Source: Candidatus Fermentibacterota bacterium
GTDB taxonomy: Bacteria; Fermentibacterota; Fermentibacteria; Fermentibacterales; JCC-6
Length of the DNA stretch: 64,000 bases
Assembly (NCBI GenBank): GCA_963845085.1
Contig: CAWJQI010000005.1
Coordinates: 813,604-877,603, forward strand
Reading direction: 5' to 3'
The number at the start of each line of letters is the position of its first letter. The stretch's first letter is position 1. The notes under the pieces were generated by a model. It was not told where the DNA came from and made no database searches. It saw nothing but the letters and a program-made list of their open reading frames with translations. The translations under genes and the position numbers were made by a program. Positions 5,473 to 51,827 of the stretch are shown here, piece by piece.

Positions 5473-6276
5473 ATGACTTCCAGTTACGACCTTTTTTCGA
5501 GCTTCGAGGAAGAACCGGGAACGGTTCTTTTCGTTGACACCGAAACCACCGGGGCCGACCCCGGAGAAGACCACATAGTCGAAGTCGCTCTGATGCTGTC
5601 CGAGTACCGCGGAACTTCCCCGAACGATTCCATCGAGGAGTATTCGTCACTCGTCAAACCGCCGGTTCCCATCCCTCCCGAGGCATCCGCCGTTCACCAC
5701 ATTACCGATGGGATGCTTGTCGGCGCCCCTGCTGCAGCGGAGATAGCAGGCGCGGTGCAAACTTTCGCCGACAAAGCCATGTTCATCTGCGCCCACAACC
5801 TCCCCTTTGACATGGCAATGCTCCAGCGGGGCTTTCCCGGTGTTTTCAACCGTTTTGCAGAGGAACAGCGGATAGACACGCTCAGGCTTGCAAGGCACTG
5901 CTGGGCGGACATTCCGTCCCATTCACTCCAGGCGCTCCGCTACAGGCACGGGCTTGACGGCATCGTGGCATCAGGCGACGCCCACAGGGCGCTGTTCGAC
6001 ACAAGGCTTGTGAAGGCGCTTCTCGATACAGTGCTCTCGCAGAATCTCACCGGCGTCACCGGCCTTTCAGAACTGGTCAGGTACATAGCGAAGCCTCTCG
6101 AGGTGAAGATCTTCAACTTCGGCAAGCACAAGGGCTGCCTGGTGGAGGATATCGCCGCCACCGATCCCGACTACATAAGATGGCTTCTGAAGCAGGAATG
6201 GCTTCCCACCGAATACCCCGACCTGTTCCACACGCTTCTGAGGAAATCCGGCGGAAATGGCAGCCATGCCGGCTGA
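5473..6276 (+). CDS. DnaQ-like 3'-5' exonuclease (DEDD family) with C-terminal KapD/ExoX-like domain
   Basis: Exo I motif LFVDTETTG, Exo III-like HRALFD. C-terminal FGKHKG...DPDYIRWLL segment. Confidence 0.7.
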   Translation: MTSSYDLFSSFEEEPGTVLFVDTETTGADPGEDHIVEVALMLSEYRGTSPNDSIEEYSSLVKPPVPIPPEASAVHHITDGMLVGAPAAAEIAGAVQTFADKAMFICAHNLPFDMAMLQRGFPGVFNRFAEEQRIDTLRLARHCWADIPSHSLQALRYRHGLDGIVASGDAHRALFDTRLVKALLDTVLSQNLTGVTGLSELVRYIAKPLEVKIFNFGKHKGCLVEDIAATDPDYIRWLLKQEWLPTEYPDLFHTLLRKSGGNGSHAG

Positions 6277-8533: not shown

Positions 8534-10024
8534 TTGATCATGTCCGCTGTTCTATCGTTCCGAAATGTTTCCTTTACGTATCCCGGAGCCGCAGAGCCCG
8601 TTTTCAAGGGGCTTTGCTTCACCGCATCCCGGGGCTGGACAGTTTTCGCAGGCCCGAACGGCATCGGCAAGACAACGATATTGAGCCTTGCCTGCGGCCT
8701 CTTAAAGCCTTCCGATGGAGAGGTTTCCTTCAGGGGCAGTGCTTACTGCTGTCCCCAGAGGACTGACGACCCTCCGGAAGGCATGATCGGCCTGATCGGG
8801 ACCGGCCTGCACTCAGAGCCCGCTTACATGCTCGGAATCGGTTCGGACTGGTATGAAAGGTGGCACACTCTCTCCCACGGAGAGAGAAAGCGCGCGCAGC
8901 TGGCAACCGCTCTCTGGAGCGAACCGGACCTGCTTGCCGTCGACGAACCTGTCAATCATCTCGACCCGGATGCCAGGGCTTTGGTTTTCAATGCCCTGTC
9001 CCGGTTTCAGGGAGTCGGGCTTCTTGTCTGCCACGACCGCAGCATGATGGACAGCCTTGCGGTGCAGTGCGGATTGCTTTCCGAAGGTGGATTGCTCTTC
9101 TGTCGTGGCGGTTACACCATGGCCGAGCAGGAGGACAGGCTGCTCGAGGAGGGAAAGCGCGAGGAAAGACGCCGCGCGGAGAAGCACTGGCTCAGGCTGA
9201 AGAGGGATGCGCGGATGCGCCTTCTGAACGCCACGATGATTCAGGCGAGTGGCTGCGGGAGGCGTGTGTCTTTTCGGGACGTCTGCAGGTTCAACATCGA
9301 CGGGCCCTCACGAGTCGACGGTGCGGTGCAGAAGGCCGGCAGGCTTTGCAGGATCGCGTCGGCCAGGGCGGAGAAGGCCAGGGAAGCCATGGAATCGGTC
9401 ACCTACCGGAAGGAATACGACAGGGGCATCCACTACCCGGCTTCCGACTGCGGAAGGAACACCCTGTTCGACCATCAACCCGAAGTTGTTCCCCTTACCG
9501 GTGGTTCACTGGCGCTTCCCTCCCTTGCAATCCGCCCCGGCGACCGCATTGCGCTCACCGGCGCCAACGGCTCGGGGAAAAGCACCCTTGTCGGATGGCT
9601 CGTTGACCACCTTCAGCTTCCCCCGGGAAGGGTTCTTCACATTCCGCAGGAGATCACCGCCCGCGAGTCGTCGGCCATTCTTGAAAGTGCTCGTGCTTTG
9701 CCCCGTGACGAGCTTGGAATGGTCATGACGGGTGTGAGAAGGCTCGGGTCGCGTCCAGAAGCCATTCTTGAGAGCGGCCTTCCAAGTCCGGGTGAGACCC
9801 GGAAACTGCTGCTGTGTCTTGGCATGCTGAAGAAGCCCTGGGTGCTTTTCATGGACGAGCCGACCAACCACATGGACCTGCCGGGCATTCGTTGCCTTGA
9901 AGAGGCACTGGATGAGCTTTCCTGCGCAATTCTTCTGGTCAGCCACGACAGTGTATTTCTCAAGCGGATCACCCGGGTTGAGTGGAGGATCCGGTCGGGT
10001 GTGCTCCAGGTGTTGCAGGGATGA
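8534..10024 (+). CDS. ABC-F-type ATPase (two tandem ATP-binding cassettes, no TM domain)
   Basis: Two Walker A motifs (GPNGIGKTT, GANGSGKST), two signature motifs (LSHGERKR, LSPGETRK), two Walker B motifs (LLAVDEP, VLFMDEP). A charged Arg/Glu-rich linker lies between the cassettes. Confidence 0.75.
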   Translation: MIMSAVLSFRNVSFTYPGAAEPVFKGLCFTASRGWTVFAGPNGIGKTTILSLACGLLKPSDGEVSFRGSAYCCPQRTDDPPEGMIGLIGTGLHSEPAYMLGIGSDWYERWHTLSHGERKRAQLATALWSEPDLLAVDEPVNHLDPDARALVFNALSRFQGVGLLVCHDRSMMDSLAVQCGLLSEGGLLFCRGGYTMAEQEDRLLEEGKREERRRAEKHWLRLKRDARMRLLNATMIQASGCGRRVSFRDVCRFNIDGPSRVDGAVQKAGRLCRIASARAEKAREAMESVTYRKEYDRGIHYPASDCGRNTLFDHQPEVVPLTGGSLALPSLAIRPGDRIALTGANGSGKSTLVGWLVDHLQLPPGRVLHIPQEITARESSAILESARALPRDELGMVMTGVRRLGSRPEAILESGLPSPGETRKLLLCLGMLKKPWVLFMDEPTNHMDLPGIRCLEEALDELSCAILLVSHDSVFLKRITRVEWRIRSGVLQVLQG

Positions 10025-39146: not shown

Positions 39147-40385
39147 CTATCTGATGAAGAGCACCCTGGCGGATGCCTTCTGTTCAAGGTTTCGCAGCAC
39201 CACGAAATAAACGCCTGCCGCAAGATCGCTGCCCTGCGAATTCCTGCCGTCCCAGAAAGCGGTTTGCACGCCCGCCGGACAGCTGCCGAGTTCCTGCGCG
39301 TGAACAAGGCGGCCGGCAGTGTCATAGACTTCGAGGGTCGTTGCGGAAAGGCCCGGTGATTCAAACACAACCGAAGTACCGGTGCTGAAGGGGTTGGGCT
39401 GAACCGAAACGATCTCCAGCATGCAGGCGGATCCGCCCTCACCTGCTGAGTTCGTTATCTCCCTCAGACCGAGGCTGTGGTAGTTCCCCGCCGCGACTCC
39501 GACAAAAGACTCGTTCGGAGGGGGAACATCGCATTGAGCGTAATAGTTGTAGCCCCAGGCCGAAATGGTTCCGTCATTGCGCAGCCCCAGGCTGTGCGAA
39601 TCCCCCCCGACCGCCGAATTGAAACCCGTGTTTGGCGAGGGCACCTGGCACTGGCCGTACGAGTTGTAGCCCCAGGCGATGAGGGTTCCGTCAGCCTTGA
39701 GGCCGAAGCTGTGATCGGCCCCGCACCCGACCGCCACAAAACCCGTGTTGGGCCAGGGCACTTCACACTGGTCGTGCGCGTTGGAGCCCCAGGCGGCTAT
39801 CGTGCCGTCCGACCTGAGGCCGAGGTTGTGATGCGAACCGGCGGCTATGGCAATGAAACCCTCGTTGGGCTCGGGAACATCGCACTGGCCCATGTCGTTC
39901 CGGCCCCATGCCTCGATCGATCCGTTGTCCCTCAACCCCAGCGAGTGCTGGTAGCCGGCCGCAATTGCGATGAACGACTCGTTCGGTTCAGGCACGTTGC
40001 ACTGGCCGTACTCGTTGTAACCCCAGGCAACGATCGAGCCCGACTCCTTCAGGCCCAGGCTGAAAACCAGCCCGCCGGCAACCGCTTCGAAGCCTTCGTT
40101 GGGCTCGGGTACGTCGCACTGACCCACAATGTTGTAGCCCCAGGCGACAATCTCACCGCTTTGAAGCAGGCCCAGGCTGTGGCTGCCGCCCGCAGCGACC
40201 GCCACGAACCCCTCGTTGGGCTCGGGAACATCGCACTGGCCGTACTCATTGTTTCCCCATGCGAGAATCCCGCCGTTGTAGTCGGCTCCGGCAGCCCCGG
40301 AAAAAACAAGCACAAGAATCGGAACAAACGTCTTTTTAAACAGCCTTTTCACAACATGCCCTCCTGTTTTTGCATAATTCAGCAA
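39147..40385 (-). CDS. RCC1-like repeat protein with T9SS C-terminal sorting domain
   Basis: ~8 tandem ~34-aa units of the form (I/V)(V/A)AWG.N..GQCDVPEPNEGF(V/I)A(V/I)AAG..HSLGL. C-terminus QPNPFSTGTSVVF...VYDTAGRLV...AAGVYFVVLR...RVLFIR is a T9SS CTD. Confidence 0.7.
   Translation of the reverse strand: MLNYAKTGGHVVKRLFKKTFVPILVLVFSGAAGADYNGGILAWGNNEYGQCDVPEPNEGFVAVAAGGSHSLGLLQSGEIVAWGYNIVGQCDVPEPNEGFEAVAGGLVFSLGLKESGSIVAWGYNEYGQCNVPEPNESFIAIAAGYQHSLGLRDNGSIEAWGRNDMGQCDVPEPNEGFIAIAAGSHHNLGLRSDGTIAAWGSNAHDQCEVPWPNTGFVAVGCGADHSFGLKADGTLIAWGYNSYGQCQVPSPNTGFNSAVGGDSHSLGLRNDGTISAWGYNYYAQCDVPPPNESFVGVAAGNYHSLGLREITNSAGEGGSACMLEIVSVQPNPFSTGTSVVFESPGLSATTLEVYDTAGRLVHAQELGSCPAGVQTAFWDGRNSQGSDLAAGVYFVVLRNLEQKASARVLFIR
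39485..40280 (-). repeat. nucleotide-level tandem repeats (~100 nt period) encoding the RCC1-like units
   Basis: Recurring ...gtgccccgagcccaacgagggcttc... / ...gcctgggg(c/t)tacaac... blocks visible on the plus strand as reverse complements. Confidence 0.5.
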
Positions 40386-42456: not shown

Positions 42457-42778
42457 TCCTTTCGCGCTGTTTCCGCGCGGAATATGGAGCGGCTTTTCTG
42501 CGGTGCCCAGCCGGACAGGGGCTGCTGTCTGTCAATGCGCTTCACTTGCTGTATCTGCGCATTCGGGCCCTTGAAGCACGAATACACGCTTTGCATTGAT
42601 TGGCATTGATTTCCGGAAGTAATTTTGAATCCCTGCAGGGTTGCGGTATCTTTTGCGTGTTTTTCCATCCCTGTGAATCTCTCCGAGCCCCCGGGGCTAA
42701 AGCACGGTGCCATGCCCCCCGGGCCGATAGGGTGTACCTGGAAACGGTTGCGCCTCCCGCATTGGAAAGGAGACTACC

Positions 42779-44401
42779 ATGAACGCCATTCTGCAGATTC
42801 CGAGGCCCGGCAACGAGCCGGTTCTGGACTACCGCCCCGGAAGCCCTGAGAGAGAGGCTTTGAGTGCTGCTCTCTCATCATTCCGTTCCTCACAAACGGA
42901 GATTCCGCTTCTTATCGGAGGCAGGGAGGTTCGGACGGGAAACCTCGGGGAATGCCATGTTCCTCATGATCATGGTCACAAACTGGGCGTTTTCCACAAG
43001 GCCGGGGCCGCCGAGGTCGCCCTTGCCGTGGAAGAGTCACAGAAGGCCTGGAAGACATGGTCGCGCACGCCGTGGGAGGAGCGGGCCGCAGTCTGTCTCA
43101 AGGCGGCTGAACTGGTTTCCAAAAGATTCCGGAACGTTATCAACGCCTCCACAATGCTCTGCCAGAGCAAAACCGTTCATCAGTCGGAGATAGATGCGGT
43201 TTGCGAGATGGCGGATTTCCTTCGGATGAACACTTGGTTCATGCAGCGGATCTATCAGATGCAGCCCGAGAACTTCGCCGCTACCTGGAACAGGCTTGAA
43301 TACAGGGCGCTTGAAGGCTTCGTGTTCGCCGTCTCGCCGTTCAATTTCACGTCGATCGGAGGCAATCTGTGCATGGCGCCGGCGCTTGCCGGGAACACCA
43401 TCATCTGGAAACCAGCCTCAACGGCAGTGTACTCGAACTGGGAACTGATGAAGGTGTTCCGTGAGGCCGGTCTTCCCGATGGAGTGATCAACTTCGTTCC
43501 CGGCGACTCGGGTGAAGTAGGACCCGCGGCACTTCTGGACCGCAGGCTTGCCGGAGTTCATTTCACCGGTTCGAACCGCGCCTTCAACAGCATGTGGAAA
43601 ACCGTGGCGGGAAACATCGACAGGTACAGGACCTATCCGAGAATCGTCGGGGAAACCGGCGGCAAGGATTTCGTTGTTGCGCACGCCTCGGCCGATGTGA
43701 GAGGCCTTGCAGCATGCCTGATCCGTGGAGCATTCGAGTTCCAGGGGCAGAAATGCTCGGCCACATCGAGGGCATACATCCCGAAATCGCTCTGGCCCTC
43801 CCTCAAAGATATCATGGCACAGGACCTGGCCACGGTTAAAACAGGTCCTGTCGAGGACTTCGGCAACTTCATCGGCGCGGTCATAGACAGGGCTTCCTTT
43901 GACAACATCCGTTCGTACATCGACTACGCCCGCAAATGCCCGGACTGCGAGATCGCCATGGGTGGCAGGTGCGACGACTCCACGGGCTATTTCGTCGAAC
44001 CCACTGTCGTTTTGACGACCGACCCTCACTGCAGGCTGATGGAAGAGGAGATCTTTGGCCCCGTCCTGACGGTTTTCCTCTACGATGAGGCCGGGTATGA
44101 CGATGTGCTCGAACTCTGTGACAGCACATCCCCATATGCCCTCACCGGAGGCGTCTTCGCAACCGACAGGGCCGCAGTCCGCCTTGCTGAGGAGAAACTT
44201 GTTCACGCAGCAGGCAACTTCTACATAAATGACAAGACAACAGGCGCGACTGTTGGTCACCAGCCATTCGGAGGAGGGCGCTCTTCCGGCACGAACGACA
44301 AGGCCGGCTCTATCTACAACCTGCTTCGATGGGTGAGCATCCGCACCCTGAAAGAGTGCTTCAACACAGCCAGGGACTTCAGGTACCCGTTCCTCGGGTG
44401 A
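42779..44401 (+). CDS. pruA: L-glutamate gamma-semialdehyde (1-pyrroline-5-carboxylate) dehydrogenase
   Basis: Aldehyde-dehydrogenase family (ETGGKDFVV, FEFQGQKCSATSR catalytic Cys region, FGPVLTV). ~540 aa with the N-terminal extension typical of RocA/PruA. Confidence 0.8.
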   Translation: MNAILQIPRPGNEPVLDYRPGSPEREALSAALSSFRSSQTEIPLLIGGREVRTGNLGECHVPHDHGHKLGVFHKAGAAEVALAVEESQKAWKTWSRTPWEERAAVCLKAAELVSKRFRNVINASTMLCQSKTVHQSEIDAVCEMADFLRMNTWFMQRIYQMQPENFAATWNRLEYRALEGFVFAVSPFNFTSIGGNLCMAPALAGNTIIWKPASTAVYSNWELMKVFREAGLPDGVINFVPGDSGEVGPAALLDRRLAGVHFTGSNRAFNSMWKTVAGNIDRYRTYPRIVGETGGKDFVVAHASADVRGLAACLIRGAFEFQGQKCSATSRAYIPKSLWPSLKDIMAQDLATVKTGPVEDFGNFIGAVIDRASFDNIRSYIDYARKCPDCEIAMGGRCDDSTGYFVEPTVVLTTDPHCRLMEEEIFGPVLTVFLYDEAGYDDVLELCDSTSPYALTGGVFATDRAAVRLAEEKLVHAAGNFYINDKTTGATVGHQPFGGGRSSGTNDKAGSIYNLLRWVSIRTLKECFNTARDFRYPFLG

Positions 44402-44407
44402 TCATGC

Positions 44408-44433
44408 GCGCGCCGGGCTTCGGCCCGGCGCGC
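44408..44433 (+). terminator. rho-independent terminator downstream of pruA
   Basis: GCGCGCCGGGC-TTCG-GCCCGGCGCGC perfect 11-bp stem starting 7 nt after the stop, followed by TTTCCTC. Confidence 0.6.
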
Positions 44434-44565
44434 TTTCCTCAATTGAAAACTTGTCAAAACGCCTTAACGATGAGGCCCACACCGAAGCAACAATCAGGCT
44501 CAGCGGATTGCTGTCACGCCCACCCAAAGCTTGGCGGCAATACCGCTGCAGCCGATAGTTGTGCT

Positions 44566-44841
44566 CTATCCTGAAAACAACTCGGAATGGGAACCTGCTC
44601 TTTCAAAGATCAGCATATCGCTTTCAATCTTATAGATAAGGAGCCAATCGGATTCCACATGGCATTCCCGTCTGCCGATATAACTGCCAACAAGCTGATG
44701 ATCCTTAAAGATCGGATCAAGTTTCTTCCCGGCGATCAACGACCTGGCAATCAGCTTGAATTGATCAATGTCTTTCCCCTGTTTTTCCGCAAGTTTGATG
44801 TCTTTTTTAAATTGCTTCGTGAAAACAGGACGATACATCAA
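44566..44841 (-). CDS. yafQ: type II toxin YafQ (RelE/ParE superfamily mRNA interferase)
   Basis: 91 aa. ...DHQLVGSYIGRRECHVESDWLLIYKIE... matches YafQ HxL.G...G.RECHI.PDWLLIY. Overlaps the upstream antitoxin gene by 4 nt. Lower-GC DNA. Confidence 0.8.
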   Translation of the reverse strand: MMYRPVFTKQFKKDIKLAEKQGKDIDQFKLIARSLIAGKKLDPIFKDHQLVGSYIGRRECHVESDWLLIYKIESDMLIFERAGSHSELFSG

Positions 44842-45104
44842 ATACCAAGCTTCTTGAACATGTCCTCCGCATTCTCGCAGAGAACAAGACCTTCACCGGA
44901 ATCGGTTTCATCCATCGTTCTCCTGGTAAGAGACGACGGTACAACCACATCAAAAGGCAGGCCGTTATTCATCTCTATCTGTTTGTAGTACAGTGTAATG
45001 GCTTGAGTTGTGGATAAGCCCAGACTCTGAAGGATTTCCTCTGCTTTTTCTTTAAGACTTGGTTCAAGCCTTGCTCTTACAGTAGCCGTCTTGCTCACAT
45101 TCAC
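44838..45104 (-). CDS. dinJ: antitoxin DinJ (RelB/DinJ family)
   Basis: 88 aa. N-terminal ribbon-helix-helix-like TVRARLEPSLKEKAEEILQSLGLSTTQAITLYYKQI. Immediately upstream of yafQ. Confidence 0.75.
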   Translation of the reverse strand: MNVSKTATVRARLEPSLKEKAEEILQSLGLSTTQAITLYYKQIEMNNGLPFDVVVPSSLTRRTMDETDSGEGLVLCENAEDMFKKLGI

Positions 45105-45175
45105 CTCGCTCTCATTTCGAATGTAGCTCGGTTAGGCTACATAGTCAAGCGATATAATCCGCACAACAAAGGTTG

Positions 45176-46267
45176 TTACTGCAATTCCATCATGTACACC
45201 AGAGGGTATAGCTCCGGGTTTTCAGGAAATGCAAGTATTCCCTCCCTGCCGACATGGAACCGCCAACGGTCACACTCCTGCCAGTCCGGCAGGCGCACGG
45301 TGCAGGTGAATGCGCGACTGCCTTCGGAGTCGAAAACATCGAATACCGGGTTCAGGTAGTCGCCTCTCAGAACCCAGAGCCTGCCTTCGCCGTCCATACC
45401 CATGCAGTCCACCATACAGAAGCACTCTGGCACCGTTATGGTAAAATCGACCGGGTTTCCGGTGGACCTGGTCCACATCGAATCGATGTACTCCATTTCA
45501 TCCTGAATCATTTCAGGTGGTTTCGGCTGCATGTGAACATCGGGAAGACGCATTTCCGTGATCAACTCCCCCTGAGTGGTGTAACCCTCGATCAGGTATT
45601 CATCAGCAACAGCTGCAGAAACGTAAACAATGCCGTCTGTTCCGGCTGATACAATGAAGTCGGCACCAAAAATGATCGGGTAGTGGGGGACAGTATTCTG
45701 GCAGAGGATCCTTTCAAGTGTGCCATCCCCTTCAAGCATCACCACCGCCTGCGTTACGGAATCCGAGTGATCCGGCATCAGGAACACTCCACAGAATTGT
45801 TCTCCCTGTACCGGGACGACCATGTGTGAAATCCCGTAGCCTGGGTCTTGAAGCTGAACCTCTCTTACGAAGCCCAGGGTATCGTCAAAAAGTACGACCT
45901 TTCTTTCCATTGCCCCGGCCTGAAGCCAGAATCCCCCCGTATTCGCGGGCACAACAAGCTTAACGTTCTGAAACTCGCCCGGACCGTTGCCGGCCAGCTG
46001 CCGCTGATGAAGACATTCACCAAGAGGAGAGAACATGAAGACTGTTTTCCGGGCTGCGTCGAGGACGACAAGATTTCCGTTGTCAATAATGCAGGCGGAA
46101 ATAACCGATCCAAACACAACCGGACCGGTTTCCGTACCAATTGAATCAATGACCGCAAGCTCCCGTTCCATCATCATGGAGGCCTGCTCTTGGTCGGCGC
46201 AGGCAAGAAGGCACATGATAAGAACAGGCAACAATTTGGCCGTTACTACAACTTGTGTCACGGACAT
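45176..46267 (-). CDS. six-bladed beta-propeller-like lipoprotein, unknown function
   Basis: ORF 45176..46309. Start moved to the ATG at 46267 (GAGAAGG RBS, lipobox LLAC). Low-GC island. Immediately downstream of the Cys-rich peptide ORF. Confidence 0.55.
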   Translation of the reverse strand: MSVTQVVVTAKLLPVLIMCLLACADQEQASMMMERELAVIDSIGTETGPVVFGSVISACIIDNGNLVVLDAARKTVFMFSPLGECLHQRQLAGNGPGEFQNVKLVVPANTGGFWLQAGAMERKVVLFDDTLGFVREVQLQDPGYGISHMVVPVQGEQFCGVFLMPDHSDSVTQAVVMLEGDGTLERILCQNTVPHYPIIFGADFIVSAGTDGIVYVSAAVADEYLIEGYTTQGELITEMRLPDVHMQPKPPEMIQDEMEYIDSMWTRSTGNPVDFTITVPECFCMVDCMGMDGEGRLWVLRGDYLNPVFDVFDSEGSRAFTCTVRLPDWQECDRWRFHVGREGILAFPENPELYPLVYMMELQ

Positions 46268-46333
46268 CACCTTCTCGTTATTGCGGTTGACATGAACTGC
46301 CGGCGCCACGCGTCAATCCCGTTACAGGAATTG

Positions 46334-46471
46334 TTAGAACTGCAGACAGAGATCGAACGGGAGGCACCAGAACGGCTCCGAGCACTGGAAAATCATGCTG
46401 CACTTGTGCCAACCACAGATCTGCTTGTTCGCCTGAAAAACGGGAACCGTTGTTCCAACAAAGATTTCCAT
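46334..46471 (-). CDS. candidate Cys-rich precursor peptide (45 aa)
   Basis: MEIFVGTTVPVFQANKQICGWHKCSMIFQCSEPFWCLPFDLCLQF. Not in the ORF track (<60 aa). ATG with AAAGGG 8 nt upstream. 5 Cys with hexad periodicity. Lies between the rSAM/SPASM gene and the beta-propeller lipoprotein gene, on the same strand. Confidence 0.45.
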   Translation of the reverse strand: MEIFVGTTVPVFQANKQICGWHKCSMIFQCSEPFWCLPFDLCLQF

Positions 46472-46652
46472 TTGTGTTGCCCTTTCTATGTCAGGTTTGG
46501 ACACAGGCCATAGTTACCGCAGTCAAACTCACCGCCGCACGAAAATGTCAGGCTGCATGCAAGAGCGTTGCACTGCTGTTTACCGATACCCCCCACGAGG
46601 GGAACACTTGATGAGACAATGACCTCCAAGGCAATCTCCCTTCAGAAGGACA

Positions 46653-47921
46653 CTATGGATGCTGTTCTTTGCTGCGCACATGCAGGTAATACTTCTCTCT
46701 AATGAATTGCTCGTATGAGGATTCGGAGAACAGGCAATCGGGTTCGGTTCCAAACACGTGGTTGTACGGGCAACCACCAGCACAGGCTGGAAGCATTTTG
46801 CAGTCATAGCACGTGCTGGAATTGTTATAGGGATTGAAGGCATCCCATTTCGCATGCGTCATTACAATGCTTCGGACATCAAGGCCATAAGGCATTTCAT
46901 ATCTTTGTGTTTCGTTGGATGCAACTTCTCGCCAGCACTTCGCGATTCGGCCATCCGGCAGAACAACGATGCCGCTCATGTTCGTTGCAGTGCAGCCCGG
47001 CTGTCTTACCCCCAGGCAGTAGCGTGACATAGTGTCAGCTCCAACACATTTTGTAAGAATGTCACGATCTGGTTCGGCGCAACTATGTTTTGGGTAGTTT
47101 TTAATGGCTGCCGGGTATACATGCACCTGTGAATTGCTGCTGAACAGGTTTTTAACGTACTGAAAACTGCCTGCGGTCTCTGAATCAACATTCACGCGCA
47201 CGTTGATCCTCATGTGTTTTGATGCGCTGACAATGTTCCTAACCACAGTACGGTACGTTTCAATGCCACCGATCAATGGTCTGTTCCTGTTATGCCTTTC
47301 TGGAGGCCCATCCAGTGTGACCTGAGCAGATGTGACACCTATTTTAGATAATATTTTTGCTGTTGCTTCCTCAAGCAGGAACCCGTTAGATATAATTTGT
47401 GCCTGAAATTCGCATCCTTCGATTGAGTTCATTTCTTCCAGCAAAAAAATGCAAACATCCAGGTTGCAAAGCGGCTCACCCCCATAGAGAGTTATGAATG
47501 CGGCTTCTGAACCAAATTGCCTGCAGGCTTCGGCGATTGAGGATGCGGTCGCTTTGCTCATCGAAACCGGATCAAGACGCTTTTCGGTTTCGTAGCAGTA
47601 CCGACAATCGAAGTTGCATATTGTTGTCATTACTGCCGTTACTGCAAACGTTCCCTTGTGCTTCGCATTATCTGTAAGGATTCTTAGGTATTGCCTCTCA
47701 TCGAATGTTCCAGGTATCAGTGCGCCCATCTCGCAAAGTGTTTGGAACGTTTGCTCATCCTGGAAATGCAGGTCATCGGGACAAAGTGTCGATGACATCA
47801 CCTTCTCGAGCATTCCCCTCTTCCTGTCGTCGACCACTTTTACAAGCGCACCCGTGAAGCCGTTGTAAATAAGAAGGTAATCGCCCTCATCCAGCCACCA
47901 GTTGTACTGCGATAACTTCAT
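46653..47921 (-). CDS. radical SAM/SPASM-domain peptide-modifying enzyme (anSME-like maturase)
   Basis: ORF 46653..47954. The ATG at 47921 (MKLSQYNWW) with a GGAAG RBS is the likely start. CNFDCRYC radical-SAM cluster motif ~110 aa from the N-terminus (N-terminal extension). GGEPL motif. C-terminal CYDCKMLPACAGGC (CX2CX5CX3C SPASM). Confidence 0.8.
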   Translation of the reverse strand: MKLSQYNWWLDEGDYLLIYNGFTGALVKVVDDRKRGMLEKVMSSTLCPDDLHFQDEQTFQTLCEMGALIPGTFDERQYLRILTDNAKHKGTFAVTAVMTTICNFDCRYCYETEKRLDPVSMSKATASSIAEACRQFGSEAAFITLYGGEPLCNLDVCIFLLEEMNSIEGCEFQAQIISNGFLLEEATAKILSKIGVTSAQVTLDGPPERHNRNRPLIGGIETYRTVVRNIVSASKHMRINVRVNVDSETAGSFQYVKNLFSSNSQVHVYPAAIKNYPKHSCAEPDRDILTKCVGADTMSRYCLGVRQPGCTATNMSGIVVLPDGRIAKCWREVASNETQRYEMPYGLDVRSIVMTHAKWDAFNPYNNSSTCYDCKMLPACAGGCPYNHVFGTEPDCLFSESSYEQFIREKYYLHVRSKEQHP

Positions 47922-48222
47922 GCTTCCCTGGTTTCCCATCACAATACTGCACAATTTTGTTCGAGTAAATCAGGAGATAGCCCATTAGTTTCAGAAGCGC
48001 ATTTTCCGGTTGGTGCTCTCCCCCTCTTGGTGGCCGCAATGCTTGTCATTCCGAAGGTTCTTCAGCCTTTCCAGTACATCCTTTATTCCAAGTACGGCCC
48101 TGGGTCCACAATTTTCAAGTCAGCAATGAATCCACCCTTGCATGAGGATTCGCTCAACACCGCTCTCCCCTTCCGCTTGACATGCACCCGAGAAGCCCGA
48201 ATAGTGGCCACAGGGGTAGTAG

Positions 48223-50595: not shown

Positions 50596-50753
50596 CCTCG
50601 CGTCAGTGCGAATACTTGGCGGGTTATTGACCCCGCCCGTCGGTCAACACTATCATTCTCAGCGGGAAAATGGTTTGTAGAGCTGCGCCGTCGGCCGGCA
50701 CTTGTGTCGCGCTCGTAACCGCGCATGCAGGCACTTCAGCAAGGGGGGAACGG

Positions 50754-51827
50754 ATGAAATCGGTTCTGCTTGTTCTTGTGGCTTTTGCAGCAATCCCCGG
50801 CGCCACTGTAATTGACCACACATGCACCGATCTTGAAAGTATTCCCGCCACCTGGATCGACCTTGTCCAGAGCACCATGAAAAGCCACTACGCGCACACC
50901 TCCCACGGCGGCCAGCTCACATACGGGCTGGAATTCGTCGAACAGGGCGATCCCGCATACGCCTATCTCGTCGGAAGCAGTTACCTGCCATCCTCATCGA
51001 CTGCTTACTGCGTCTTCGACGGTCAGGAGTCAGAAACCTACATCACCCCCGAGCTTTACTGGGAAAGTGCAGCGGGCATCCAGATGACAAGGGATGTTCT
51101 CAACCACAATCCAACCATCTGCACGTCGATGTGGAGCTGGTGCACCCAGTGCGACTACTACTCCCAGGAGCAGGTTCAGGACTACCTCGATGTGATGAGC
51201 CAGCTTGAAAGCGAGTTCCCCGACGTTACGTTCATCTACTTCACCGGCAACGCGCAGTCGGAGGGATCAAGCGGCTACAACAGACATTTGCGGAACGAGC
51301 AGATCCGGGCCTACTGCCAGAGCAACGACAAGGTTCTTTTCGACTTCGCCGACCTCGACTGCTGGTGGTTCAACCCGGCGACGCAGACCTGGGAGCAGAA
51401 CACCTACTCCTACGGGGGGAGCGCCGTCCCCTCCGAACACCCCCACTTCTCGGGCGACGAGTACGGCCATACAACAGCTGAGAGCTGCGAGCAAAAGGGC
51501 CGTGCGTGGTGGTACATGATGGCTTTGCTTGCCGGCTGGTCGGGAACGGGGATCTCGGGACCCGCTGAAGGTCTCCTCCCTGCCGCCGTGACCGTATCCC
51601 CCAACCCGTCATCCGGCGTTTCATGCATTACCGTCGATCTCGCTTCCTCCGGGCGGGTGCGCGTGAGCGTGCTCGATCTCGCGGGAAGGGTTGTATACGA
51701 GTCCGACTCCACGCTCGAGAAAGGCATGCACACGTTCCCCGTCGTTCTCGGGCAGAGCGGCGTCTTCCTTGTCTCTGTCGAAGCGGGTGCCGAACGGCAC
51801 ATTTCAAGGCTTGTCACACTGGAATGA
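50754..51827 (+). CDS. secreted protein with T9SS C-terminal sorting domain
   Basis: ORF 50670..51827. Start moved to the ATG at 50754 (AAGGGGGG RBS, signal peptide MKSVLLVLVAFAAIPGA). C-terminus VSPNPSSGVSCITVDL...VSVLDLAGRVVYES...GVFLVSVE...RLVTLE. Confidence 0.65.
   Translation: MKSVLLVLVAFAAIPGATVIDHTCTDLESIPATWIDLVQSTMKSHYAHTSHGGQLTYGLEFVEQGDPAYAYLVGSSYLPSSSTAYCVFDGQESETYITPELYWESAAGIQMTRDVLNHNPTICTSMWSWCTQCDYYSQEQVQDYLDVMSQLESEFPDVTFIYFTGNAQSEGSSGYNRHLRNEQIRAYCQSNDKVLFDFADLDCWWFNPATQTWEQNTYSYGGSAVPSEHPHFSGDEYGHTTAESCEQKGRAWWYMMALLAGWSGTGISGPAEGLLPAAVTVSPNPSSGVSCITVDLASSGRVRVSVLDLAGRVVYESDSTLEKGMHTFPVVLGQSGVFLVSVEAGAERHISRLVTLE

What the first reader, a model, noticed from the sequence alone, without database searches (positions are those of the whole stretch)
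46334..46471. 45-aa peptide with hexad-periodic cysteines (candidate rSAM substrate)
MEIFVGTTVPVFQANKQICGWHKCSMIFQCSEPFWCLPFDLCLQF has a hydrophobic leader-like N-terminus, then C-x4-C-x5-C-x5-C-x5-C. The three consecutive six-residue units SMIFQC / SEPFWC / LPFDLC each place Phe 2-3 residues before Cys. It is aromatic-rich (4 F, 2 W in the core) and ends 2 residues after the last Cys. It has an RBS-like AAAGGG. It is in the same codon register as, but antisense to, a 107-aa plus-strand ORF (46190..46513) that I consider spurious. Its size and Cys count echo SCIFF ('six Cys in forty-five') without sequence similarity.
Basis: seen in the sequence. Interest (0 to 1): 0.8.

Follow-up and report, generated by a model that had tools for sequence, protein, structure and literature searches.

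The report
Unannotated Cys-ladder peptide genes beside radical-SAM enzyme
The 45-residue cysteine-periodic peptide is a real but unannotated gene, one of two tandem copies encoding precursor peptides that the neighbouring radical-SAM enzyme most likely cross-links, and it belongs to a rare, uncurated family that always travels with a beta-propeller lipoprotein.

Summary
This is pepA (46486..46629, minus strand), which has the same C-x4-C-x5-C-x5-C-x5-C spacing and a similar leader. Both lie between a radical SAM/SPASM gene (46653..47921) and a six-bladed NHL beta-propeller lipoprotein gene (45176..46309).

Every homologous rSAM locus recovered carries one or two Cys-rich peptides in the same position. 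The close clade keeps the hexad pattern. A profile search of 1.84 billion proteins found only a handful of further members. It also found a second precursor group with the same core module, in one locus (L177) next to a different, PapB/QhpD-like rSAM.

The repeat unit is C-[D/S]-x-x-[F/Y]-x; the position four residues after each Cys is aromatic (F/Y) or His in 42 of 42 modules. No Pfam or NCBIfam model covers the peptides, and the maturase is below the cutoff of every curated family. Its model matches CteB, a thioether-forming maturase, over its full length, including an N-terminal RRE-like leader-binding domain.

Thioether cross-linking is inferred, not shown. It is not SCIFF. I rate it a new variant of a known kind.

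The parts
46653..47921 (-). Radical SAM/SPASM peptide maturase, 422 aa from the ATG at 47921. The mechanical ORF extends to a TTG at 47954.
   Evidence: Pfam Radical_SAM and Fer4_12. CX3CX2C at C102/C106/C109 and a seven-Cys SPASM signature (C310-x13-G-x4-C329, C371-x2-C-x5-C-x3-C384, C396) are invariant in 12 homologues. The best NCBIfam hits are FlmE/OhkG 164 bits, TIGR04463 146, Clo7bot 137, CefB 136 and geopeptide 132, all far below their cutoffs. The AF2 model has pLDDT 83 and an N-terminal beta3-alpha3 RRE-like domain at residues 7-65. The top fold match is CteB 5WGG, TM 0.70.
46486..46629 (-). pepA, a 47-aa precursor peptide and paralogue of the finding (TTG start). It begins 23 nt after the rSAM stop codon.
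   Evidence: same Cys spacing and a similar leader to pepB; GAAGGGAG Shine-Dalgarno at 46636..46643, 6 nt before the TTG. An identical sequence occurs in a second sample (L006). The codon log-odds score is best in this frame. The exact sequence is absent from the 15-billion-protein collection, so it has not been annotated.
46334..46471 (-). pepB, the 45-aa precursor peptide of the finding (ATG start). It begins 14 nt after the pepA stop codon.
   Evidence: AAAGGG at 46480..46485. Aligned with the peptides of L001, L003 (two) and L005, the invariant residues are P10, C19, C24, C30, F34 and C36. The profile built from these peptides retrieves P0032, P0033 and P0038 from 1.84 billion proteins. 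Not annotated.
45176..46309 (-). Six-bladed NHL-type beta-propeller protein with a lipoprotein-like signal peptide (…LIMCLLAC|ADQ). It is a conserved partner of the cluster.
   Evidence: Weak Pfam DUF5128 hit (21.4 bits); the L005 orthologue scores 36.7 bits and also hits NHL. Orthologues follow the peptide genes in L001, L003, L005, L008, L011, L173 and L174. The AF2 model has pLDDT 82, and Foldseek top hits are NHL domains, Drp35, PAL and Vgb. The GxGPGEF NHL motif is invariant.

Best explanation
pepB and its upstream paralogue pepA are genuine ribosomal precursor peptides of a small RiPP operon on the minus strand: rSAM/SPASM maturase, pepA, pepB, beta-propeller lipoprotein.

Proposed mechanism. 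The short N-terminal leader (M-E-[IV]-x-[IV]-x3-[IVL]-P…) docks as a beta-strand on the N-terminal RRE-like domain of the maturase. The maturase then uses 5'-deoxyadenosyl radical chemistry and its two SPASM auxiliary clusters to process the repeated C-[D/S]-x-x-[F/Y]-x units of the core. The most likely reaction joins each Cys sulfur to a carbon of a neighbouring residue. The best acceptor candidate is the conserved aromatic residue four positions downstream (C-x3-aromatic), the same spacing as PapB's C-x3-Asp. The product would be a rigid ladder of small in-line thioether rings. The modified peptide then acts outside the cytoplasm together with the lipoprotein beta-propeller, which serves as a binding, immunity or processing partner.

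Shown here: the genes exist, they are conserved, they are always linked to this maturase clade, the maturase has all rSAM/SPASM/RRE-type features, and the propeller is a conserved partner.

Inferred only: the thioether chemistry, the acceptor residue, export, and the role of the propeller.
For: Tandem paralogues, each with its own Shine-Dalgarno sequence, separated from neighbours by operon-like gaps of 14-24 nt. The Cys pattern and leader are conserved in L001, L003 (two copies) and L005, downstream of rSAMs 43-49% identical to the window's. Cys-rich peptides occupy the same position in the 32-35% clade (L007, L009, L011, L013, L173/L174). A profile search of 1.84 billion representative proteins gives only 16 hits, including three new 44-48-aa members. 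The same core module appears twice per peptide in a second precursor group; in its one locus with context, L177, it lies next to an rSAM whose best hits are PapB (192 bits), QhpD (153 bits) and the SCIFF maturase (128 bits), all Cys-donor thioether formers. Position +4 after Cys is F, Y or H in 42 of 42 modules, and +1 is D or S in 33 of 42. The maturase has CX3CX2C and the full SPASM Cys set, an RRE-like N-terminal domain and a full-length fold match to the thioether synthase CteB. Precedents from the literature: six in-line C-x3-D/E thioethers made by PapB (PMC9413430); Cys-to-Phe alpha-carbon thioethers in subtilosin A, and a substrate Cys bound at an auxiliary cluster of CteB (PMC8172795).
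Against: There are no expression or mass-spectrometry data. The five curated families closest to the maturase (FlmE/OhkG, TIGR04463, Clo7bot, CefB, geopeptide) have, to my knowledge, no established chemistry; for FlmE/OhkG the published work covers only the arginase of the cluster (PMC12703449). SPASM enzymes also make C-C and C-O links. Sequence similarity to the characterised thioether synthases is weak (PapB 87 bits, QhpD 59, SCIFF maturase 44; about 31 bits to CteB, SkfB and anSME in the PDB). Codon statistics barely separate the two strands for pepB (15.0 vs 11.6). The window has no protease or exporter next to the cluster, so it is not explained how a cytoplasmic product would reach a lipoprotein.
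Confidence: 0.8

Rival explanations
1. Same genes, different chemistry. The maturase acts on the conserved aromatic residues (for example a C-C cyclophane or a C-O link to a neighbouring side chain) or epimerises residues. The periodic Cys then form disulfides or bind metal after export, rather than acting as thioether donors.
For: The aromatic position is as conserved as the Cys (42 of 42). Cyclophane-forming SPASM enzymes (AmcB 55 bits, YhhB 49, FxsB 41) also appear in the hit list. SuiB, a Lys-Trp cyclase, and the epimerase EpeE are among the fold matches. The closest curated families have, to my knowledge, no established chemistry.
Against: The best full-length fold match is the thioether synthase CteB. 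The same core module is paired in L177 with a PapB/QhpD/SCIFF-maturase-like enzyme. The cyclophane families score lower than PapB (87 bits).
Confidence: 0.2
2. QHNDH-like logic. The cross-linked peptide is not a free natural product. It is exported and becomes a tightly bound small subunit or ligand of the periplasmic beta-propeller lipoprotein, as cross-linked QhpC does with the QhpA and QhpB (beta-subunit) proteins of QHNDH.
For: The propeller gene directly follows the peptide gene(s) in the window and in most clade loci with enough sequence (L001, L003, L005, L008, L173, L174; after a ~370-nt gap in L011), in the order rSAM, peptide, propeller, with an ABC exporter next in L009 and L011. 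The propeller has a lipoprotein signal. No invariant His or Cys suggests a metalloenzyme site. The QhpD/QhpC/QhpE/QhpF pathway is an established precedent (PMC7876137).
Against: QhpD similarity is weak (59 bits against a cutoff of 453). There is no haem subunit, protease or flavoprotein. L013 and L177 carry related peptides without an adjacent propeller. Tandem propeller paralogues (L173, L174) fit immunity or receptor diversification equally well.
Confidence: 0.15
3. The small ORFs are not the substrate. The rSAM/SPASM enzyme matures the beta-propeller protein itself, as anSME matures sulfatases, and the peptides are unrelated or are regulatory leader peptides.
For: anSME is among the best sequence and fold matches. 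The propeller is the most constant neighbour.
Against: The maturase has an RRE-like leader-binding domain that anSME lacks. The peptides have conserved leaders and cores. The same core occurs with another rSAM and no propeller in L177. L013 has a peptide but no adjacent propeller.
Confidence: 0.04
4. pepB is a chance ORF, and the plus-strand 107-aa ORF (46190..46513) is the real gene.
For: The plus ORF is longer. Its codon log-odds over pepB (11.6) is close to the minus-strand value (15.0). Gene callers did not call pepA or pepB.
Against: The plus ORF has no Pfam or NCBIfam hit. It overlaps the propeller gene start. The antisense frame is broken in L001 and L005. The minus-strand peptide is conserved at the protein level across loci whose rSAMs are only 43-49% identical to the window's.
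Confidence: 0.02

Closest known systems
Freyrasin system PapA/PapB (ranthipeptide)
   Same: A short leader followed by a core of repeated in-line Cys-containing units, processed by one rSAM/SPASM enzyme. The C-x3-acceptor spacing is identical (C-x3-D in PapA, C-x3-[F/Y] here). The second precursor group with the same core is paired with a PapB-like enzyme in L177.
   Different: There is no conserved carboxylate at +4, and PapB chemistry needs Asp or Glu (PMC9413430). The window maturase scores only 87 bits against PapB, whose cutoff is 340. The repeat is six residues long. A beta-propeller partner is present.
SCIFF / CteA-CteB (thermocellin)
   Same: A peptide of about 45 aa with a Cys-rich C-terminal half. 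The maturase has the RRE-rSAM-SPASM architecture, and CteB is the best structural match (TM 0.70).
   Different: Five Cys with hexad spacing instead of the SCIFF pattern. No hit to the SCIFF peptide model. The SCIFF maturase model scores 44 bits against a cutoff of 425.
TIGR04463 ('rSAM_vs_C_rich'), CefA/CefB (Cys-every-fifth), Clo7bot, geopeptide and FlmE/OhkG maturase families
   Same: These are the nearest curated maturase families (130-165 bits). TIGR04463-like L080 also sits beside a periodic-Cys repeat ORF (GGCAADGGC…).
   Different: All are far below their cutoffs of 400-600 bits. The peptides match none of the curated precursor models. FlmE/OhkG serve Arg-containing 'DD(I/V)LF' precursors (PMC12703449). 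To my knowledge none of these families has established chemistry, so they say nothing about the mechanism.
Quinohemoprotein amine dehydrogenase maturation (QhpD/QhpC/QhpB/QhpF)
   Same: An rSAM/SPASM enzyme makes several Cys thioethers in a small peptide that is exported by an ABC transporter and partners with a periplasmic beta-propeller (PMC7876137). The gene neighbourhood rSAM-peptide-propeller(-ABC exporter) recurs here.
   Different: QhpD scores 59 bits against a cutoff of 453. The propeller here is a six-bladed NHL-type lipoprotein and shows no detected sequence similarity to QhpB. There is no haem subunit, no CTQ-forming Trp/flavoprotein and no subtilisin.
Sactipeptides (for example subtilosin A / AlbA)
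   Same: A Cys sulfur linked to the alpha-carbon of Phe is an established rSAM/SPASM product (Phe22 and Phe31; PMC8172795). This makes the conserved aromatic residue a plausible acceptor.
   Different: Sactipeptides have nested hairpin rings, with donors and acceptors in separate halves. Here donor and putative acceptor alternate in a six-residue repeat. The sactisynthase models score low (SkfB 31 bits in the PDB search).

Membership tests
SCIFF (six Cys in forty-five) ranthipeptide precursors | Match to the curated SCIFF precursor model | tested here: not met
   pepA and pepB give no NCBIfam or Pfam hit at E <= 1. That the scanned NCBIfam release contains the SCIFF precursor model is my assumption.
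SCIFF (six Cys in forty-five) ranthipeptide precursors | Six Cys in the C-terminal half with the SCIFF spacing | tested here: not met
   pepB has five Cys, at 19, 24, 30, 36 and 42, spaced x4/x5/x5/x5. The SCIFF spacing itself is recalled from memory.
SCIFF (six Cys in forty-five) ranthipeptide precursors | Adjacent ScfB-type maturase (TIGR03974) | tested here: not met
   TIGR03974 scores 44.2 bits against a cutoff of 425.
Radical SAM/SPASM RiPP maturase (superfamily level) | CX3CX2C radical SAM cluster motif | tested here: met
   C102-x3-C106-x2-C109 is invariant in 12 homologues. Pfam Radical_SAM scores 61.8 bits.
Radical SAM/SPASM RiPP maturase (superfamily level) | Seven-Cys SPASM signature for two auxiliary 4Fe-4S clusters | tested here: met
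   C310, G324, C329, C371, C374, C380, C384 and C396 are invariant.
Radical SAM/SPASM RiPP maturase (superfamily level) | N-terminal RiPP recognition element | tested here: inconclusive
   The AF2 model has three strands followed by three helices at residues 7-65, and the full-length alignment to RRE-containing CteB has TM 0.70. There is no PqqD Pfam hit and no binding data.
Radical SAM/SPASM RiPP maturase (superfamily level) | Short precursor gene(s) adjacent and co-conserved | tested here: met
TIGR04463 / CefB / Clo7bot / geopeptide / FlmE-OhkG maturase families | Score above the curated cutoff of the family model | tested here: not met
   146/525, 136/600, 137/600, 132/400 and 164/500 bits respectively.
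PapB-type ranthipeptide system | PapB-family maturase | tested here: not met
   86.9 bits against a cutoff of 340.
PapB-type ranthipeptide system | Cys-X3-Asp/Glu acceptor motifs | tested here: not met
   Position +4 is F, Y or H in 42 of 42 modules and never D or E.
PapB-type ranthipeptide system | Thioether to a non-alpha carbon | not testable with these tools
   This needs MS/NMR of the modified peptide.
Quinohemoprotein amine dehydrogenase (qhp) system | QhpD maturase, haem subunit QhpA, CTQ-forming Trp | tested here: not met
   TIGR03906 scores 59 bits against a cutoff of 453. No cytochrome, flavoprotein or subtilisin gene lies nearby. Trp is not conserved in the peptides.
NHL / DUF5128 six-bladed beta-propeller | Six-bladed NHL fold with GxGPGEF-type repeats | tested here: met
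   The AF2 model has pLDDT 82. The Foldseek top hits are NHL domains at E about 1e-11. G-x-G-P-G-E-F is invariant. Pfam DUF5128 scores 21.4 bits (just under the 22.9 cutoff) for the window protein and 36.7 bits for the L005 orthologue.

The most novel reading that the evidence does not exclude
The hexad unit C-[D/S]-x-x-[F/Y]-x encodes a cross-link type not yet described for RiPPs: a repeated in-line Cys-to-aromatic-residue thioether ladder (C-x3-aromatic). The product may not be a free bacteriocin. Instead it may be exported and locked into the NHL beta-propeller lipoprotein as a cross-linked small subunit or ligand, which would be a QHNDH-like 'peptide-in-propeller' assembly in an uncultured FCB-group bacterium. 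The same module, recruited independently by two rSAM/SPASM lineages, would then be a portable cross-linking cassette.
Probability: 0.15. Interest if true: 0.8.

Novelty: new variant of a known kind. Interest (0 to 1): 0.6.

Why it matters
The work adds two protein-coding genes that automated annotation missed. It defines a precursor family and a maturase clade that no curated model covers. The family is very rare: 17 maturase relatives (E <= 1e-20) among 5.8 billion proteins, and 16 peptide hits among 1.84 billion representatives. The repeat is strictly regular (Cys, small polar residue, x, often Pro, aromatic, x) and it recurs with a second, PapB/QhpD-like maturase lineage. This gives a simple, testable substrate for finding out what these SPASM enzymes do. 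The nearest curated families (TIGR04463, CefB, Clo7bot, geopeptide, FlmE/OhkG) also lack known chemistry, to my knowledge. The constant NHL-propeller lipoprotein partner is unusual for RiPP clusters. It may point to a receptor, an immunity protein or a holo-complex role.

Tried and rejected
1. The genome-contig scan with the single rSAM protein found nothing. The alignment-based scans of genome and metagenome contigs used generic SPASM patterns. They returned about 160 loci, mostly at 25-30% identity and belonging to other families; only L013 (a Fermentibacteria MAG) belongs to the clade.

2. Paper searches for OhkG/FlmE together with radical SAM, for rSAM + RiPP + beta-propeller + cysteine-rich and for DUF5128/BF3164/NVEALA found no description of this system. 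The ohk/flm paper characterises only the arginase.

3. The sigma-70 promoter and intrinsic terminator scan was no better than shuffles.

4. Codon-position GC and codon log-odds give only weak strand discrimination for such short ORFs, so I rely on conservation instead.

5. The fold search with the propeller gave only generic NHL, lactonase and lyase matches, so no specific function could be assigned.

6. P0031 and P0042 from the profile search are repeat artefacts, not family members. P0034's contigs were too short to show any context.

7. The SCIFF, CefA, PapA-type and qhp memberships were each tested and rejected (see the membership table).

Full report
**1. The observation**

Its Cys residues lie at positions 19, 24, 30, 36 and 42, giving C-x4-C-x5-C-x5-C-x5-C. 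The three hexads, the count of 4 F and 2 W in the core, and the AAAGGG sequence 8 nt before the ATG are all correct. So is the shared codon register with the plus-strand ORF 46190..46513. One detail is wrong: three residues (LQF), not two, follow the last Cys.

A second small ORF, pepA, lies immediately upstream on the same strand at 46486..46629. It has a TTG start and a GAAGGGAG Shine-Dalgarno sequence 6 nt before it. Its product is MEVIVSSSVPLVGGIGKQQCNALACSLTFSCGGEFDCGNYGLCPNLT, with the same five-Cys spacing and a similar leader.

The two peptides align with a BLOSUM62 score of 72. Shuffled versions score 20.9 +/- 4.2, with a maximum of 44 in 5000 shuffles. In all six frames of the 64-kb window, C-x4-C-x5-C-x5-C occurs exactly twice, and those are these two adjacent ORFs. 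From the Cys frequency measured in the same call, I estimate about 0.13 hits would be expected.

**2. The context in the window**

Four genes lie on the minus strand with gaps of 14-24 nt:

- a radical SAM/SPASM enzyme at 46653..47921
- pepA
- pepB
- a 377-aa protein at 45176..46309

The enzyme has Pfam Radical_SAM and Fer4_12 domains. Across 12 homologues, the CX3CX2C motif (C102/C106/C109) is invariant. So is a complete seven-Cys SPASM signature: C310-x13-G-x4-C329, C371-x2-C-x5-C-x3-C384, and C396.

Its best NCBIfam matches are all peptide maturases: FlmE/OhkG 164 bits, TIGR04463 146, Clo7bot 137, CefB 136, geopeptide 132 and PapB 87. Each is far below its curated cutoff.

An AlphaFold model built from the 12-sequence alignment has pLDDT 83. 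It starts with three strands and three helices (residues 7-65), which is the topology of a RiPP recognition element. Over its whole length the model is most similar to CteB (5WGG, TM 0.70), the RRE-rSAM-SPASM thioether synthase of the SCIFF peptide thermocellin. The next matches are TigE, anSME, ChlB and SuiB. By sequence alone it is remote from every solved structure, at about 31 bits.

The fourth gene encodes a protein with a lipoprotein-like signal (…LIMCLLAC|ADQ). It has a weak DUF5128 '6-bladed beta-propeller' hit. Its model (pLDDT 82) matches NHL-repeat propellers, Drp35 lactonase, PAL and Vgb lyase. The NHL motif GxGPGEF is invariant in its homologues, and no His or Cys is invariant.

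Downstream lies a YafQ/RelB toxin-antitoxin pair with a promoter-like site of its own. Upstream, transcribed divergently, is a PAS histidine-kinase/receiver hybrid. No protease or exporter is adjacent.

The toxin-antitoxin pair and the four genes form a low-GC stretch (0.46-0.53, against 0.56-0.59 on both sides). This suggests the region was acquired. T9SS-type sorting domains in neighbouring genes and the one named relative, a Candidatus Fermentibacteria MAG (L013), point to a host in the FCB group.

**3. Conservation elsewhere**

The maturase family is rare: 17 proteins reach E <= 1e-20 among 5.8 billion.

The three independent close homologues (43-49% identity) all have the same layout:

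| Locus | Peptide(s) following the rSAM |
|---|---|
| L001 | MTTICGPLIPLLVLVGDQQCSGATCDEGFTCSTPFGCEDYIQIASI |
| L003 (first) | …VLICDPVIPVPGVFAREQCDKFLCSPGYTCDTPFSCGSVGCVF |
| L003 (second) | MEIVIEPSLPGALVARICQGYTCSGWFFCDSVFLCSKFDICAFY |
| L005 | …IEVTILDAGNLPLLLDPSKQACSAHGCDIDFQCSGGFLCDTHYIGI |

In each locus a propeller lipoprotein gene follows, 29-37% identical to the window's. In the six-peptide alignment the invariant residues are P10, C19, C24, C30, F34 and C36.

The more distant maturases (32-35% identity: L007/L008, L009/L010, L011/L012, L013, L173/L174) also have a Cys-rich small ORF immediately after the rSAM. Their Cys spacing is different. Most are followed by one to three propeller genes (no NHL-type propeller was seen next to the peptide in L013). 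L009 and L011 then have an MsbA/HlyB-type ABC exporter.

The exact pepA and pepB sequences are absent from a 15-billion-protein collection that does contain the neighbouring rSAM and propeller from the same 1.04-Mb contig. The two genes have therefore simply never been called.

**4. A portable core module**

I searched a profile of the six peptides against 1.84 billion representative proteins. Only 16 hits reached E <= 0.001.

- Three are new 44-48-aa members with the same leader and core (P0032, P0033, P0038).
- Seven are 84-112-aa proteins (P0034-P0037, P0039-P0041). They have a different, hydrophilic and probably helical leader, followed by two copies of the same core, for example …CGGHSCEPNYECVKPFGCSPAH….
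- Two (P0031, P0042) are repeat artefacts.
- The other four are the query's own relatives (P0018, P0019, P0021, P0022).

None of these peptides has a Pfam or NCBIfam hit.

The one locus of the second group with usable context, L177, has four such precursor genes around a different rSAM/SPASM enzyme. That enzyme is only 28% identical to the window's over 123 residues. Its best family matches are PapB (192 bits), QhpD (153), the Nif11-peptide maturase (147), the SCIFF maturase (128) and CcpM (122). No propeller is present.

Over 42 modules from both groups, the residue four positions after each Cys is F (34), Y (5) or H (3). The residue directly after Cys is D (17) or S (16). Pro is common at +3. 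The repeat unit is therefore C-[D/S]-x-[P/x]-[F/Y]-x.

**5. The strand question**

- The plus-strand ORF has no family hit and overlaps the start of the propeller gene.
- The corresponding antisense frames are interrupted in L001 and L005.
- Codon log-odds trained on the window's confident genes favour the minus frame clearly for pepA (6.2 vs -2.5) but only marginally for pepB (15.0 vs 11.6).

The case therefore rests on protein-level conservation across loci whose maturases are only 43-49% identical to the window's, not on composition.

**6. The likely mechanism**

Shown:

- The precursor genes are real and conserved, and they are strictly linked to one maturase clade.
- The maturase has every sequence and fold feature of an RRE-rSAM-SPASM peptide maturase.
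- An extracytoplasmic NHL propeller is a conserved partner.

Inferred:

- The leader (M-E-[IV]-x-[IV]-x3-[IVL]-P) binds the RRE-like domain.
- The enzyme then cross-links each Cys sulfur to a nearby carbon.

I favour thioethers for three reasons. The Cys are the invariant feature of the core. The best full-length structural match is a thioether synthase in which a substrate Cys binds an auxiliary cluster (PMC8172795). And the same module is paired in L177 with an enzyme of the PapB/QhpD/SCIFF-maturase group, which makes Cys-to-Asp/Glu/Thr thioethers (PMC9413430, PMC7876137, PMC8172795).

The acceptor cannot be the PapB-type carboxylate, because no D or E is conserved at a fixed offset. The only universally conserved partner is the aromatic residue at +4 (which is also -2 from the next Cys). 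C-x3-aromatic has the same spacing as PapB's C-x3-D. Cys-to-Phe alpha-carbon thioethers exist in subtilosin A (PMC8172795). The product would be a ladder of small in-line rings.

This chemistry is a hypothesis. The five nearest curated maturase families have, to my knowledge, no established chemistry. For FlmE/OhkG, the published work covers only the arginase of the orphan 'DD(I/V)LF' clusters (PMC12703449). SPASM enzymes also make C-C and C-O links.

The role of the propeller is open. It could be a binding partner, an immunity protein, a receptor or a processing factor. Tandem propeller paralogues in L173 and L174, and the absence of invariant His or Cys, argue mildly for a binding role rather than a metalloenzyme role. 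In the window it is also unexplained how the peptide would leave the cytoplasm.

**7. Comparison with known systems and novelty**

It is not SCIFF, CefA, PapA-type or qhp; the defining features of each were tested and not met (see the membership table). It does work like a Cys-rich rSAM/SPASM RiPP of the sactipeptide/ranthipeptide kind.

The gene order rSAM, peptide, propeller (and in two loci an ABC exporter) is close to the maturation pathway of quinohemoprotein amine dehydrogenase. There, QhpD cross-links QhpC before an ABC transporter exports it to join the other QHNDH subunits, QhpA and the beta-subunit QhpB (PMC7876137). I keep that as a minority reading.

No paper in the searchable library describes this family or a link between DUF5128 propellers and rSAM systems.

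I rate it a new variant of a known kind. The general logic is familiar. The precursor family, the maturase clade, the hexad Cys/aromatic repeat shared by two maturase lineages and the obligatory propeller partner are not curated anywhere I could search.

Confidence is about 0.8 that pepA and pepB are genuine rSAM-modified precursors, and about 0.55 that the modification is thioether formation.

Noticed in passing
window 42669..42788 (+): A Moco/tungsten-cofactor riboswitch (RF01055, 69 bits, E 1.4e-14) lies directly upstream of, and overlaps the start of, a 540-aa aldehyde-dehydrogenase-family gene (42779..44401). This is an uncommon gene class to find under Moco-riboswitch control.
   Followed up: no
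window ~44400..48100: A low-GC stretch (0.46-0.53, against 0.56-0.59 on both flanks) covers exactly the YafQ/RelB toxin-antitoxin pair (44566..45104, minus strand) plus the four-gene RiPP cluster. The rSAM also has an unusually low GC3 (0.52, against about 0.70 in other genes). This looks like a horizontally acquired islet.
   Followed up: partly
L177 3829..4575, 5621..5749, 8964..9257: The 3' end of a 248-aa gene (…KYNPFGPADRTM.GGRQIAEILKDR.ITTVCGYNYV..YPEWKRRFD.GPIFGGY) recurs as two truncated copies that bracket the rSAM/precursor cluster. It looks as if the cluster was inserted with duplication of the target gene's end.
   Followed up: no
L080 5389..~6000 (+): Next to a near-TIGR04463 rSAM (506 bits) in a Bacillota MAG lies a 203-aa ORF made of GGCAAD/GGCAAR-type repeats. 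The Cys mostly recur every five or six residues. It is probably the 'C-rich' substrate type behind that model's name.
   Followed up: partly
L173 4535..7086; L174 4535..8500: Two (L173) or three (L174) tandem paralogous NHL-propeller lipoprotein genes follow a single precursor gene. Expansion of the propeller rather than of the peptide hints at diversification of a binding or immunity function.
   Followed up: no
window 39147..40385 (-) and 50670..51827 (+): An RCC1-repeat protein with a FlgD_ig-type C-terminal domain, and a protein with a Por_Secre_tail (T9SS sorting) domain. These point to a host in the FCB group.
   Followed up: no
window 46190..46513 (+): A 107-aa ORF lies antisense to pepB, the 3' end of pepA and the start of the propeller gene, in the same codon register as pepB. 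It has no family hit and is not conserved. It is most likely a by-product of the stop-poor reverse complement of coding sequence in this fairly GC-rich genome.
   Followed up: yes
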